Positions 6,001 to 9,000 of a stretch of 38,098 nt of DNA are shown here, piece by piece (the first letter of the stretch is position 1; every line of letters begins with the position of its first letter). Made by a program: the position numbers. The stretch is from a virus. Its lineage: Duplodnaviria; Heunggongvirae; Uroviricota; Caudoviricetes. The stretch is from IMG/VR virus record IMGVR_UViG_2563366991_000005; one strand, given 5' to 3'.

Positions 6001-9000
6001 TTTAGAATAACGGGTAAAGTCATCGATGCTGGCAGTGGAAAGCGCACCACGGAAACGGAAGCGATTTAAATTAAATTTTTCCAGATCATGAATGCGGAAA
6101 TTCTCAGGCAATGCTACAGCATCGGCACCAATCTTACTGATAATTTCATTAACACCCTGAGCAGAAATAAGGGCATGGATTTGATTAATTGCGGTTGCGT
6201 CTAAGCTCTGAGACATAATAAGTCCTCACTATATTAAGATATTCAGTGATGAGATAAATAATCAGTTAATTAAGAACGATATTAATGACCTGCTGCGCGG
6301 AGTTTTCCGTCAGGATCACCGGCAAGAGTCAGTAATTGTCCCTGGTCTTCCTGCAGAATAGTCAGGCGACCACCGCGATTGACATACATCGGCGTTTCGG
6401 TGGTGTCTTCTTCGGAAATTTTCCCGCGGTTAGTCGGGCGAACATATGAGAGTTTGTGTTTGATTTTCACACGGTTCTCATCAAACGGTTCGATTTCCAG
6501 GTTGAGCGAGACCTTACCTTTGGTTTTCGTGTTCATCACACCGGAAGCGACTTCACTGAGAACTGCGCCGATTTTGGTTTCAAATACGCCGCCGTCCAGC
6601 TCCCCAATAAATGCCTGCACATCAGTACTGCGTTCGCTAGCCATTTTGCTGCTCCTCATCATATCGACCCTGCAAGGTCGGTTGGTTTCTCCACAAAACA
6701 GAGAAGAACACCTGCGGTGACTGCCGCCCGGATGGATTGGGTTATGAGCCCGTCGTCCGGTGATGCTCTTCTCTGTTTTGTAAAAAGAGCGGTACCAGCC
6801 GGAATCAAGGGTACAAACTGGTACCGCCAAAGCAGTGGCTGTTGTGGTGGGGTTGTCACTCAGGCGTATGGTCAACCTGACAATCCGGTGTCCTCAACGG
6901 GGAAAGAGTAACCCCGCCATACTTACCGCCGCGCCATTTCGCGGATTACCACAACGCTGAGAGCACTTAGCCAGTTACGGCACCACACTTTGTCGCGGCT
7001 CCATAAATGCCCTCATCGTTGCACCCTGGTCTCTTCCCAGGCGTCAAACCGAATCGCCACGCTGGTTAGGCGTCTTATCAGCATCATCATTGACTTGCAC
7101 ATTCCGGCTACCTGGTTTGTTTGCCCGAGCAAGGAGTGGATTGTCCCCTTTAACGTCCCCAGACCGCTAACGACGCATGTGCCATACGCCGTGTTACAAC
7201 CAAATTTTGTTAGTACCTTGTTTGTTTGTCTGGAAAGAAAGATAAAATGAAGTTGCGCATTATGCAAGTGTTTTTGTTGCGAGATATGCAATTTAAAGGG
7301 TAATGAAAAGCCACCTTTGGGTGGCTAATTGATGAGGAGGTAAGGGTTAATTGTGTCGCTTAAGGGTTTGTGACTGGCTGATTAAGACCTTTCCAAAGAC
7401 CATAAACCGGTGTTCATTTTCGCTGGTAATTCCCCATTCACGGTAAATCTGGTTATCAGAAATCACCAGTAGTTTGTCAGGTATCATTTGCAGTCGTTTG
7501 ACATAAATTTTATCATCAAAACCAAATACATAGATACCATCTCCATCAAACTGATTGATACTGACATCAACGAAGATGAGATCTCCTGGCTCAATGGTTG
7601 GACACATACTGTCCCCACGAACGTTGATAACTTTAATGTGATTGGCTGGCCGTCCGCCAAACATCGATACAGCATTATCAGTTCTGTATTCAATGGCATG
7701 AATCACATCAATGACATCACCGCCCTGGATAAGGCCATTTCCCGCACTGGCACTGACATCCAGCATTTCAATACGGAATACATCCTTCACCTGCGCAACA
7801 TCCTCACTAATACTGTTTTTACATACAGTATTACTTTTGACGTCTGAGGTAAAGAGATCAGCAATATCAACACCTAAGCTCCTGGCAATATTACTCAGGG
7901 CTTGTTCAGTGAATTGTTTCTGCTTACCTGTTTCCAGGCGTGAGATATTCGCCGCATCCACTCCTATTGCTTCAGCGAGATCGGCGATTTTCATGTTCTT
8001 CGCCTGGCGAAGTTGTCTGACTCGGTTTCCTATGTTCATGCGTTTATTACATTTCTTTATTGCGCGTTAAGCAAATCAACTTGCGCAAAATATTTGCGTG
8101 AAATAATATGCTCATCACGCAATATGTGGAGGTCATATGCAATCACCATTACGGAATGTGCGTAAGGCGCACGGATTTACTTTGCAGCATGTTGCTGCTG
8201 GCGTTCAGGTCAATCCAGCGACGCTGAGTCGTATTGAAAGACTGGAACAAATTCCATCTATCGATCTTGCAGAACGTCTGGCCAATTTTTTTAAGGGTGA
8301 AATCAGCGAAATGCAGATTCTTTATCCGGCACGTTTTCAATCTAGCCAAAACCAGAATGGGTTTAAACCACAGGAACAGGAGGTAAGCCGTGGGTAATCA
8401 TCACTGGAAAGTGGAAAAACAGCCTGAGTGGTACGTGAAAGCTGTCAGAAAAACTATCGCGGCGTTGCCGGGGGGTTACGCTGAAGCTGCTGAGTGGCTG
8501 GATGTAACAGAGAACGCATTATTTAACCGCCTTCGTGCCGATGGCGATCAGATTTTCCCGCTGGGATGGGCAATGATTTTACAACGTGCTGGTGGCACTC
8601 ACTTCATTGCCGACGCTGTGGCGCAGTCTGCAAATGGCGTCTTTGTGTCTCTTCCTGACGTCGAGGATGTGGACAATGCCGATATTAACCAGCGTTTACT
8701 GGAAGTCATTGAACAGATCGGCAGTTATTCAAAACAGATTCGTTCGGCAATCGAAGACGGTGTAGTGGAACCGCATGAGAAGACAGCAATTAACGACGAG
8801 CTGTACCTCTCAATTTCGAAGCTGCAGGAGCATGCAGCACTTGTCTACAAAATTTTTTGCGTTTCAGAAAGTAATGACGCCCGCGAGTGTGCAGCTCCGG
8901 GCGTCGTGGCGTCGATTGCTTCTGGTTGTGGAGAAACTAACGCATGAACAGTTTAACAACACACTACCGTCGCTCGCAACTGATTGCGCTTCCTGTACCG

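What the first reader, a model, noticed from the sequence alone, without database searches (positions are those of the whole stretch)
7810..7829. Perfect SOS box embedded in the cI repressor coding sequence
Seen: TACTGTTTTTACATACAGTA, a 12/12 match to the LexA box consensus with an AT-rich spacer, in the linker-coding region of cI. Chance expectation for a perfect match in this window is roughly 0.005. On the plus strand a TTGACG hexamer lies 7 bp downstream. Inference: an SOS-regulated internal promoter (for example antisense to cI, reading toward cro) or a LexA roadblock; either would be an unusual second SOS input to the immunity switch besides CI autocleavage.
Basis: partly seen in the sequence, partly recalled or inferred. 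Interest (0 to 1): 0.6.

Follow-up and report, generated by a model that had tools for sequence, protein, structure and literature searches.

The report
SOS-gated hidden gene inside phage repressor
A very good binding site for the bacterial DNA-damage repressor LexA sits inside a prophage's own repressor gene, has been kept there across many bacterial genera, and is followed by a conserved hidden start signal, which suggests that DNA damage switches on a shortened repressor lacking its DNA-binding half.

Summary
The SOS box is real: TACTGTTTTTACATACAGTA lies at 7811-7830, 1 nt off the stated coordinates. It is in the linker codons (70-77) of a 230-aa HTH+S24 cI gene (7347-8039, minus strand). 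It scores 26.4 bits on a PWM built from E. coli operators, above recA and sulA; shuffles of the window reach 14.9 at most.

It is not chance. The box sits at the same codons in every member found of this cI family except two, down to 50% protein identity and across more than 10 genera. The surrounding linker is hypervariable, yet third codon positions inside the box are invariant.

Three features point the other way:
- The only positionally conserved promoter-like arrangement is on the cI sense strand: a -35-like hexamer, 17 bp, then TACTGT. umuD and sulA have the same geometry.
- A conserved Shine-Dalgarno plus in-frame GTG lies 20-30 nt downstream of the box. Val87 is GTG in 40 of 46 lineages, against 18% for Val codons elsewhere in the same genes.
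- Box-less relatives mostly lack this start signal.

Best reading (about 50%): a LexA-repressed internal promoter makes an N-terminally truncated CI of 147 aa, the S24 domain with its Ala-Gly site. This would be a built-in second SOS input. I found no report of it in the searchable literature. It needs TSS mapping and protein detection.

The parts
7347..8039 (-). cI repressor gene, 230 aa: HTH domain (residues 7-64), variable linker (about 65-86), S24 self-cleaving peptidase domain (104-218)
   Evidence: ORF list; Pfam HTH_3/HTH_26 and Peptidase_S24; annotated cI/CI repressor in PhiR63_1, SfII and Stx2a_1447
7811..7830 (.). LexA (SOS) box. On the cI sense strand it reads TACTGTATGTAAAAACAGTA (CDS nt 210-229, codons 70-77). 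It differs by one spacer base from the E. coli umuD/sbmC operator.
   Evidence: PWM 26.4 bits; umuD/sbmC operator sequence from PMC3009722; same position in homologues
7848..7853 (-). -35-like hexamer TTTACC (codons F63-T64), exactly 17 bp upstream of the TACTGT arm of the box
   Evidence: PWM promoter scan, 8.5 bits; present at 6.5 bits or more in 85% of 53 lineages; hexamer table; inferred, not shown to be a promoter
7825..7830 (-). -10-like hexamer TACTGT, which is the left arm of the box. umuD and sulA show the same geometry (TTGATC-17-TACTGT).
   Evidence: inferred
7801..7805 (-). Shine-Dalgarno-like GAGGA (codons E79-D80), 10 nt upstream of the internal GTG
   Evidence: Duplex energy with the 16S 3' end is -6.3 kcal/mol; the annotated cI ATG has +0.2
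7788..7790 (-). In-frame GTG (Val84), the predicted internal start codon of this allele. Most other lineages use GTG/ATG at Val87/88.
7347..7790 (-). Predicted nested in-frame ORF of 147 aa: the complete S24 domain preceded by a 15-residue tail that carries the Ala-Gly cleavage site. It has no DNA-binding domain.
   Evidence: Its closest solved-structure sequences are UmuD/UmuD' (E=1e-4). The product itself has not been observed.
7740..7745 (-). Ala99-Gly100 codons, the predicted autocleavage site. Catalytic Ser144 is at 7608-7610 and Lys181 at 7497-7499.
   Evidence: Invariant A99, G100, S144 and K181 in the alignment; coordinates
7309..7326 (-). Intrinsic-terminator-like hairpin directly after cI. 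A transcript started at the box could therefore encode only the 3' part of cI.
   Evidence: annotated terminator at the same place in SfII

Best explanation
The 20-bp sequence is a functional LexA operator that this cI family keeps in the only part of the gene that tolerates it, the inter-domain linker.

Proposed mechanism:
- The operator overlaps a weak sigma-70-type promoter reading in the same direction as cI: TTTACC, 17 bp, then TACTGT, the arrangement seen at umuD and sulA.
- In an undamaged lysogen, LexA occludes this promoter.
- When LexA is cleaved during a strong or sustained SOS response, a short transcript starts inside or at the end of the box and runs to the terminator after cI.
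- That transcript is translated from a conserved Shine-Dalgarno plus in-frame GTG. In this allele the start is Val84 at 7788-7790; in most relatives it is Val87.
- The product is a 147-aa CI lacking the HTH domain but retaining the dimerising, self-cleaving S24 domain and its Ala-Gly site.

Proposed function: I infer that this truncated CI acts on the full-length repressor, most likely as a built-in cognate antirepressor that forms DNA-binding-defective heterodimers. Less likely, it is a RecA* decoy or a trans-acting protease. Either way LexA would feed a second SOS input into the switch alongside CI autocleavage.

Status of each step:
- Shown: existence, quality and DNA-level conservation of the operator; conservation of the internal SD plus GTG.
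- Inferred: LexA binding, the promoter, the transcript, the protein and its activity.
For: (1) Operator quality. The site scores 26.4 bits, above recA (22.0) and sulA (22.4). The SfII, L084, L086 and L090 alleles carry the exact umuD/sbmC operator.

(2) DNA-level selection.
- The box is at the same codons in 24 of 26 distinct homologues in the first set and in every family member in the second. That gives 136 unique CDS, 53 lineages below 90% nt identity and 38 distinct 20-mers.
- The family reaches down to 50% aa identity and includes Shigella, Citrobacter, Klebsiella, Pantoea, Proteus, Salmonella and Cronobacter.
- The linker around the box is hypervariable. Yet third-codon-position entropy is 0 at T71, codon 73, codon 75 and S76, against 1.0-1.85 at other invariant residues.
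- Positions A2, T6, T19 and the CTG/CAG arms are fixed, while the spacer varies but stays AT-rich.

(3) Orientation. A sense-strand (-35-like)-17-TACTGT arrangement scores 6.5 bits or more in 85% of lineages. The per-position background is 0.7% and the best antisense position reaches 40%. umuD and sulA both have TTGATC-17-TACTGT.

(4) Internal translation start.
- All 16 representative box-bearing lineages have an in-frame GTG/ATG with SD energy of -5.5 kcal/mol or stronger between the box and the Ala-Gly site. Only 7-8% of control 60-nt windows do.
- Among box-less relatives, 3 of 15 have one; Fisher p=3e-6.
- Val87 is GTG in 40 of 46 lineages. Val codons elsewhere in the same genes are 18% GTG, and 15 other conserved Val columns range 0-37% (p=5e-24).
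- Linker Glu and Gly codons are biased to GAG and GGG.
- The internal SD has a median of -7.2 kcal/mol, against -2.0 at the annotated cI ATG.
- The two family members that lost the box (L097, L103) also lack a usable start.

(5) Coding potential. A terminator follows cI directly, so the only thing such a transcript can encode is the cI 3' part.
Against: - There is no direct evidence for LexA binding, a transcription start or the short protein. I could not obtain TSS tables for the ST64B homologue.
- The -35-like hexamer is weak (3-5 of 6). It is made of conserved Phe-Thr/Ser codons, so its conservation may be purely protein-level. The -10-like element is inherent to any LexA box.
- The simple consensus scan found no promoter at the box.
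- In this window's own allele Val87 is GTA. The predicted start is Val84, with a rather long 10-nt SD spacing. A few lineages have only a start at Val96, three residues before the cleavage site.
- Lineages are related, so the p-values overstate independence.
- The internal start could also be used on the full-length PRM mRNA, independently of LexA.
- RNAalifold found no conserved structure that would mask the start in the long mRNA.
- The direction of the effect, pro- or anti-induction, is not determined.
Confidence: 0.5

Rival explanations
1. LexA roadblock or attenuator. LexA bound in the middle of cI impedes RNA polymerase coming from PRM or PRE. CI synthesis is therefore held down in undamaged cells and rises when LexA is cleaved, or the reverse for establishment. 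No internal promoter is involved.
For: The operator is of very high predicted affinity and lies in a transcribed region. No strong canonical promoter is detectable. The linker may simply be the only place a 20-bp motif fits.
Against: This model does not predict the conserved SD plus in-frame GTG 20-30 nt downstream, the GTG bias at Val87 or the GAG/GGG codon bias. It also does not predict the co-loss of box and start in L097 and L103. Raising CI during SOS runs against the logic of an autocleaving repressor. LexA is not an established elongation block (my own knowledge).
Confidence: 0.15
2. Antisense SOS promoter. LexA represses a plus-strand promoter near the box that reads through the 5' half of cI towards oR and cro. 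This would interfere with PRM and/or express cro.
For: The box is palindromic, so -10-like hexamers exist on both strands. TTGACG lies at 7837-7842. Antisense candidates scoring 6.3-8.4 bits exist in the window.
Against: TTGACG is not conserved, because codons D-V-K vary. Its -10 partners are poor, and the box would lie upstream of its -35. No antisense arrangement is positionally conserved: 40% at best against 85% for sense, and the would-be -35 falls in the hypervariable, purine-rich linker. This model does not explain the sense-strand SD plus GTG.
Confidence: 0.08
3. The truncated CI is made as proposed, but it protects the prophage. It acts as an abundant decoy substrate or binder for RecA*, or it stabilises CI oligomers. 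This would raise the damage threshold for induction rather than promoting it.
For: The product keeps the Ala-Gly site and the whole S24 domain. There is a precedent for a second product of a repressor gene that blocks RecA-mediated cleavage: phage 434 Hex (PMC3564112). The umuD-type operator is a late, high-dose one (PMC5999292).
Against: A repressor lacking its DNA-binding domain but retaining its dimerisation domain is expected to be dominant-negative (general knowledge, not tested here). Nothing in the sequence distinguishes the two directions.
Confidence: 0.2
4. There is no LexA function. The motif is kept for a protein-level reason (the peptide T-V-x-x-x-S), or as a recombination junction between repressor modules, or it is a chance or relic sequence.
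For: T71, V72 and S76 are invariant amino acids. Phage repressor genes are mosaic: the same CTD family occurs with other N-terminal domains.
Against: Synonymous positions are frozen: ACT, GTA/GTT, NNT, NNC and AGT only. The amino acids at codons 73-75 change non-conservatively (C/Y/D/F/H, K/I/N/T/E, N/H/Y/D/S/T/P) while every LexA-critical base is kept. The flanks are hypervariable, which argues against a homology patch for recombination. The motif has persisted to 50% aa identity.
Confidence: 0.03

Closest known systems
LexA-controlled antirepressor modules of temperate phages (Tum of coliphage 186, the Gifsy antirepressors, Ant of SPC32H, AntC of N15)
   Same: LexA, not only RecA-stimulated repressor cleavage, gates prophage induction by derepressing a phage gene whose product inactivates the repressor (Gifsy: PMC3121763 and PMC7067206; the others from my own knowledge).
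   Different: In those systems the antirepressor is a separate, unrelated small gene, and the repressor is usually non-cleavable. Here the candidate effector is nested in frame inside the repressor gene and is the repressor's own C-terminal domain. The repressor also keeps an intact Ala-Gly/Ser/Lys autocleavage apparatus.
E. coli umuDC and sulA SOS promoters, and the protein UmuD
   Same: The operator is identical or differs by one base (umuD/sbmC TACTGTATATAAAAACAGTA). The geometry is the same: a -35-like hexamer, 17 bp, TACTGT, then about 20-30 nt containing an SD, then the start codon. The product is an S24 domain of about 140-147 aa with a short N-terminal tail carrying the cleavage site, and its best PDB sequence matches are UmuD/UmuD'.
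   Different: Similarity to UmuD is weak (25 bits). I saw no umuC-like partner next to it. The ORF is embedded in a repressor gene rather than free-standing. No role in translesion synthesis is implied.
Phage 434 Hex
   Same: It is a second protein encoded within or overlapping the repressor coding region, and it modulates the SOS sensitivity of the repressor (PMC3564112).
   Different: According to that abstract, Hex comes from the PRM mRNA and from an ORF that only partly overlaps the repressor coding region. It is not LexA-gated, and it inhibits cleavage.
In-frame internal-start inhibitor pairs (Tn5 transposase/inhibitor, lambda S105/S107 holin-antiholin, sieB/esc)
   Same: One ORF yields a full-length protein and an N-terminally shorter form that antagonises or modulates it (my own knowledge).
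   Different: None of these is a repressor/antirepressor pair. Apart from the weak LexA effect reported at the Tn5 transposase promoter, none is SOS-gated. Here the short form would have its own operator-controlled promoter inside the gene.
Lambda CI / LexA-type autocleaving repressors
   Same: HTH plus S24 architecture, Ala-Gly site, Ser/Lys dyad, divergent cro, oR/oL operators and a probably leaderless cI mRNA.
   Different: Lambda cI, P22-type c2, and the HK022, BTP1 and HK639 relatives examined here have no LexA box in the linker.

Membership tests
Gammaproteobacterial LexA operator (SOS box) | 16-bp palindrome CTGT-N8-ACAG with an AT-rich spacer, ideally TACTG(TA)5CAGTA | tested here: met
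   TACTGTATGTAAAAACAGTA; 17/20 to the consensus, both arms perfect
Gammaproteobacterial LexA operator (SOS box) | Score within the range of experimentally established operators | tested here: met
   26.4 bits on a PWM of 16 E. coli operators, which themselves range 14.1-28.3. One base from the umuD/sbmC operator. Shuffles reach 14.9 at most.
Gammaproteobacterial LexA operator (SOS box) | Conserved in orthologous positions beyond what coding constraints explain | tested here: met
   Same codons in 53 lineages below 90% nt identity. Third-position entropy is 0 inside the box, against 1.0-1.85 at other invariant residues.
Gammaproteobacterial LexA operator (SOS box) | Overlaps or adjoins a promoter that it represses | tested here: inconclusive
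   A sense-strand TTTACC-17-TACTGT is positionally conserved and mirrors umuD and sulA. It is weak, however, and was not found by the stricter consensus scan.
Gammaproteobacterial LexA operator (SOS box) | Bound by LexA in vitro or in vivo; downstream transcription is SOS-inducible | not testable with these tools
   No ChIP, EMSA or TSS data for this locus were found in the searchable literature.
CI/LexA-type autocleaving repressor (HTH + peptidase S24) | N-terminal HTH domain and C-terminal S24 domain | tested here: met
   Pfam HTH_3/HTH_26 at 7-64 and Peptidase_S24 at 104-218, E=6e-19
CI/LexA-type autocleaving repressor (HTH + peptidase S24) | Ala-Gly cleavage site and Ser/Lys catalytic dyad | tested here: met
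   A99-G100, S144 (GDSM) and K181 (VKRL) are invariant in 37 homologues. UmuD aligns over the GDSM...VKKLQ segment.
CI/LexA-type autocleaving repressor (HTH + peptidase S24) | RecA*-stimulated self-cleavage | not testable with these tools
   Biochemical property
LexA-controlled phage antirepressor module (Tum/Ant type) | A distinct gene with a LexA box at its promoter | tested here: not met
   No separate gene exists; the candidate is an in-frame internal ORF of cI. The only other strong LexA box in the window is in a methyltransferase gene.
LexA-controlled phage antirepressor module (Tum/Ant type) | The product binds and inactivates the cognate repressor | not testable with these tools
   Inferred only from the shared dimerisation domain
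Nested in-frame gene with an internal translation start | A conserved ribosome-binding site and start codon inside the ORF, under selection at synonymous sites | tested here: met
   16/16 lineages against a 7-8% null. Val87 is GTG in 87% against 18% elsewhere. GAG/GGG codon bias in the linker.
Nested in-frame gene with an internal translation start | The shorter protein is detected | not testable with these tools
   No proteomic evidence could be retrieved
UmuD family | A free-standing LexA-regulated S24 protein operonic with a UmuC-type polymerase | tested here: not met
   The ORF is embedded in cI and followed by a terminator and oL. Sequence similarity to UmuD is only 25 bits.

The most novel reading that the evidence does not exclude
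The repressor gene is a two-in-one switch gene. From PRM it makes the full-length CI. From a LexA-gated promoter hidden in its linker codons it makes its own DNA-binding-domain-less C-terminal domain. That short form poisons CI dimers and cooperativity, or cleaves CI in trans. Every immunity type of this widespread family would then automatically carry a perfectly cognate, SOS-inducible antirepressor inside the same ORF. The family includes SfII, mEp460, ST64B-like and several Stx2a phages, and about 19% of complete E. coli genomes.
Probability: 0.35. Interest if true: 0.85.

Novelty: new variant of a known kind. Interest (0 to 1): 0.75.

Why it matters
Prophage induction is usually described by two mechanisms. 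Either RecA* makes the repressor cut itself (lambda), or LexA derepresses a separate antirepressor (186, Gifsy). This locus appears to combine both in a single gene: a cleavable CI whose linker codons hold a umuD-grade LexA operator and a hidden start for a truncated CI.

The family is common. Alleles at 90% nt identity or more are in 1040 of 5426 complete E. coli genomes. It also occurs in Shigella serotype-converting phage SfII, in Stx2a-converting phages and in an ST64B-like Salmonella phage. Its induction threshold therefore bears on Shiga-toxin release and on horizontal transfer under antibiotic-induced SOS.

It is also a clean example of a regulatory DNA site and a translation start maintained inside protein-coding sequence. 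The signature is frozen synonymous positions within a hypervariable peptide. Standard annotation misses such features.

The proposal is directly testable with a few silent mutations.

Tried and rejected
- Free-standing CTD-only genes with an upstream LexA box, which would have been a strong parallel. Hits covering only residues 80/86-230 (Omnitron, SW-70, L257-L269) turned out to be full-length repressors with other N-terminal domains or a disrupted gene, and they have no box.
- Experimental TSS evidence. The ST64B homologue is STMMW_20241/SL1344_1967. The nearby ncRNA STnc1310 lies downstream of cI, not inside it. No TSS table could be retrieved (Kroger 2012 is not held; the PNAS 2018 supplements are not held).
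- Structure prediction of CI to fix the domain boundary. The model was poor (pLDDT 51). Only the HTH domain (1-62) was confident, so I did not use it beyond that.
- Masking of the internal SD in the long PRM mRNA by the upstream pyrimidine tract. Single-sequence folding is suggestive: pairing probability 0.64 against 0.30 for shuffled upstream sequence, and SD unpaired 0.24 in the long context against 0.42 in the short one. But RNAalifold found no conserved pairing, only the box palindrome itself. I keep this as a weak lead only.
- Literature searches for a LexA box within cI, truncated repressors, intragenic LexA sites, the exact 20-mers, and the gene or phage names. No report of this feature was found.
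- The first viral-contig scan with the window's cI returned only near-identical copies. It was useless for divergence but showed the box, SD and GTG84 intact in 80/80.
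Full report
**Observation.** The 20-mer TACTGTTTTTACATACAGTA is in the window at 7811-7830, one base to the right of the stated 7810-7829. The core CTGT-N8-ACAG is at 7813-7828.
- The pattern CTGT-N8-ACAG occurs twice in the window against 0.40 expected from shuffles.
- The full site matches TACTG(TA)5CAGTA at 17 of 20 positions, and none of 100 shuffles gave such a match.
- On a position weight matrix built from the 16 E. coli operators listed in Table 4 of PMC3009722, the site scores 26.4 bits. That is higher than the recA (22.0), sulA (22.4) and lexA (20.3) operators and close to umuD/sbmC (28.3). 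The best score in 50 shuffles of the whole window was 14.9.
- Read on the cI sense strand, the site is TACTGTATGTAAAAACAGTA, one spacer base away from the umuD/sbmC operator TACTGTATATAAAAACAGTA.

**Context.** The window is a lambdoid prophage close to PhiR63_1, mEp460, SfII and some Stx2a phages.
- cI is 7347-8039 on the minus strand (230 aa). Pfam places the HTH domain at residues 7-64 and Peptidase_S24 at 104-218.
- Ala99-Gly100, Ser144 and Lys181 are invariant in the family, so the protein looks like a normal self-cleaving repressor.
- cro (8137-8397) is divergent.
- A terminator-like hairpin (7309-7326) follows cI directly.

**Conservation.** This is the decisive result for the observation.
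- In an alignment of 37 protein homologues (67-83% identity, many genera) the linker is hypervariable, except for T71, V72 and S76.
- DNA from 22 genome loci and several phages shows why. The box sits at exactly the same CDS position (nt 210-229) in Shigella, Citrobacter, Kluyvera, Klebsiella, Buttiauxella, Trabulsiella, Pantoea, Mixta, Rosenbergiella and Proteus. It is also there in an ST64B-like Salmonella phage and in Cronobacter phage ENT47670 (50% identity). The flanking codons are scrambled.
- Only two family members lack it: L097 (Dryocola) and L103 (Phaseolibacter).
- Two further scans of viral contigs raised the set to 136 unique box-bearing genes, 53 lineages below 90% nucleotide identity and 38 different 20-mers.
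- Third codon positions are invariant at T71 (always ACT), codon 73 (NNT), codon 75 (NNC) and S76 (always AGT). At other invariant residues, such as A99, G100 and G102, third-position entropy is 1.7-1.85 bits.
- The amino acids at codons 73-75 change freely (C/Y/D/F/H; K/I/N/T/E; N/H/Y/D/S/T/P), but every LexA-critical base is kept and the spacer stays AT-rich.
- More distant CI relatives with a homologous C-terminal domain have no box: BTP1, Turner, Klebsiella 2b, HK022, Mulock, PHL101, Stx2_95, HK639, PSTRCR_117lys, Omnitron and L257-L266.

The selection is therefore on the DNA, and its pattern is that of a LexA operator.

**Which way does it point?**
- A consensus scan found no promoter at the box.
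- With a softer sigma-70 matrix, the only positionally conserved candidate is on the cI sense strand: a -35-like hexamer made of the Phe63 codon and the next one (TTTACC in the window, 7848-7853), 17 bp, then TACTGT, the left arm of the box (7825-7830). It scores 6.5 bits or more in 85% of the 53 lineages, against 0.7% per position elsewhere in these genes. The best antisense position reaches 40%, and its -35 is not conserved.
It has poor -10 partners and would place the box upstream of the promoter.
- The sense arrangement is the same as upstream of E. coli umuD and sulA. In both, TTGATC lies exactly 17 bp before the TACTGT arm of the SOS box, and the start codon follows the box by 19-22 nt.
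- I recall from the older literature that TACTGT serves as the -10 in those promoters. That point is memory, not a test.

**A hidden start.** Between the box and the Ala-Gly site, every box-bearing lineage has an in-frame GTG or ATG preceded by a Shine-Dalgarno sequence.
- The duplex energy with the 16S 3' end is -5.5 kcal/mol or stronger in 16 of 16 representative lineages. The same is true for all distinct linkers in the larger set.
- Only 7-8% of 60-nt in-frame control windows in these genes, or in the long ORFs of the window, reach that value.
- Among 15 box-less relatives, 3 do (Fisher p=3e-6).
- The SD sequences differ between lineages: GAGGA-N10-GTG, GAGGG-N7-GTG, GGAG-N8-GTG, AGGAG-N9-ATG, GGAGG-N6-GTG. 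The start sits at codon 84, 87/88 or 96. This is turnover with retention of function.
- The cleanest test uses synonymous codons. Val87 is GTG in 40 of 46 lineages. Only 18% of all other Val codons in the same genes are GTG, and 15 other conserved Val columns range from 0 to 37% (binomial p=5e-24). Several remaining lineages have ATG at this position.
- Glu and Gly codons in the linker are biased to GAG (71% against 40%) and GGG (32% against 12%).
- The internal SD is much stronger than anything before the annotated cI ATG (median -7.2 against -2.0 kcal/mol). That ATG is instead preceded by a conserved TGTAAT at -12 to -7, suggesting a leaderless PRM transcript as in lambda.
- The two family members that lost the box have no usable internal start.
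- In the window's own allele Val87 is GTA. The predicted start is GTG at Val84 (7788-7790), with GAGGA (7801-7805) 10 nt upstream. Box, SD and GTG84 are intact in 80 of 80 near-identical viral contigs.

**The product.**
- Translation from GTG84 gives 147 aa: a 15-residue tail with the Ala-Gly site, followed by the whole S24 domain, and no HTH.
- Its best matches among solved structures are UmuD and UmuD' (E=1e-4). In size, layout and regulatory region it resembles UmuD. The similarity is weak, there is no umuC next to it, and I do not file it as a UmuD.
- Because a terminator follows cI, a transcript starting at the box can encode nothing else.

**Mechanism.** My best-supported model has these steps:
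1. LexA occupies the box in the lysogen and occludes the internal sense promoter.
2. When LexA is depleted, a short mRNA is made.
3. That mRNA is translated from the internal SD/GTG into a CI lacking its DNA-binding domain.

The operator is of the umuD type. In E. coli that type is a late promoter, needing the highest UV dose for full activity (PMC5999292). By analogy, the short CI would appear only after strong or prolonged damage.

What the short CI does is inference. A dimerisation-competent, DNA-binding-defective repressor is expected to be dominant-negative, which would make it a built-in cognate antirepressor. A RecA* decoy that delays induction is the main alternative. Phage 434 Hex is a precedent for a second product of a repressor gene that blocks cleavage (PMC3564112).

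My rough probabilities:
- functional LexA operator: about 0.9;
- operator plus internal sense promoter plus truncated CI: about 0.5;
- antirepressor function specifically: about 0.35.

**Rivals.**
- A LexA roadblock on PRM/PRE transcription needs no promoter. It leaves the SD/GTG conservation unexplained.
- The antisense promoter lacks conserved elements.
- Protein-level or recombination-junction conservation is contradicted by the frozen synonymous sites and the hypervariable flanks.
- The internal start might also work on the full-length mRNA regardless of LexA. I looked for a structure that would mask it in the long RNA. Single-sequence folds suggest pairing of the SD with the upstream pyrimidine tract (0.64 against 0.30 in shuffles). 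There is no alignment-level support.

**Known or new?**
- LexA-controlled antirepressors are well known (186 Tum, the Gifsy antirepressors; PMC3121763).
- A LexA operator and an internal start conserved inside a cleavable cI gene are not described in anything I could search. I searched phrases, the exact 20-mers, the phage names and the ST64B locus tags.
- The library is incomplete, so this is absence of evidence.
- The family is common: alleles at 90% identity or more are in 1040 of 5426 complete E. coli genomes.
- I classify it as a new variant of a known kind, namely LexA-gated anti-repression, here nested in the repressor gene itself.

**Also seen.** A second strong LexA box is at 17196-17215 (TACTGTAAAAATAAACAGTG, 21.7 bits).
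- It overlaps codons 3-9 (N-T-V-K-I-N-S) of a DNA methyltransferase gene (17188-18240; Pfam N6_N4_Mtase).
- It is conserved at the same codons in Stx2a_WGPS2, Morganella phage IME1369_02 and Yersinia phage P840, at 66-84% DNA identity.
- Its role is unexplained.

**Verdict.** The sequence evidence points to an SOS-gated nested gene for a truncated repressor. That proposal needs TSS mapping, LexA binding and protein detection to stand.

Noticed in passing
window 17196-17215 (within ORF 17188-18240, + strand): A second strong LexA box, TACTGTAAAAATAAACAGTG (21.7 bits, comparable to dinI and recA). It overlaps codons 3-9 (N-T-V-K-I-N-S) of a DNA methyltransferase gene (Pfam N6_N4_Mtase). It is conserved at the same codons in Stx2a_WGPS2, Morganella phage IME1369_02 and Yersinia phage vB_YenS-P840, despite 66-84% DNA identity. 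How a box just inside the coding start regulates this gene is unexplained.
   Followed up: partly
window 17136-17155: Inverted repeat CTGCTTT...AAAGCAG, about 35 nt upstream of the methyltransferase ATG. It is conserved in the same four phages. It may be an RNA hairpin or a terminator/antiterminator element of the late region.
   Followed up: no
window 8046-8051 (minus strand TGTAAT, -12 to -7 from the cI ATG at 8039): The annotated cI start has essentially no Shine-Dalgarno sequence across the family (median -2.0 kcal/mol). It is preceded by a conserved TGTAAT at the position of a -10 hexamer. This suggests that the PRM transcript is leaderless, as in lambda.
   Followed up: partly
window about 8060-8125 and 7250-7295: Repeated TTGCG-N5-TGCAA-like half-palindromes, for example ttgcgcgttaagcaa, ttgcgcattatgcaa and ttgcgagatatgcaa. 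They lie between cI and cro and again just past the cI terminator. They are probably the oR and oL operators of this immunity type.
   Followed up: no
window 9292-10263 (+), roughly 9590-9700: The replication-initiator-like ORF contains a run of near-identical short repeats, translating as SKSDASKSDASKSDTSKFDASKFDASKS. These may be origin iterons embedded in the gene, as in the lambda O gene.
   Followed up: no
window 15435-16595 (- strand): A 386-aa ORF on the opposite strand to its neighbours, just upstream of the methyltransferase region. It may be a moron or defence gene. I did not analyse it.
   Followed up: no
L003 (mEp460) 2549-3196, and database proteins P0002-P0006: The mEp460 GenBank record and several database entries start cI at an internal ATG (Met16), giving 215 aa. 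The family alignment supports the upstream ATG and 230 aa.
   Followed up: partly
L104 (NZ_JBHSON010000232.1, 1407 bp, labelled Actinomadura rugatobispora): This short contig encodes an enterobacterial-type cI of this family, with the LexA box. It is almost certainly contamination in an actinomycete assembly.
   Followed up: no
L003 (mEp460) 4243-4258: Another CTGT-N8-ACAG match, about 100 nt inside the Rha-type antirepressor gene of mEp460. I did not score it or check its conservation.
   Followed up: no
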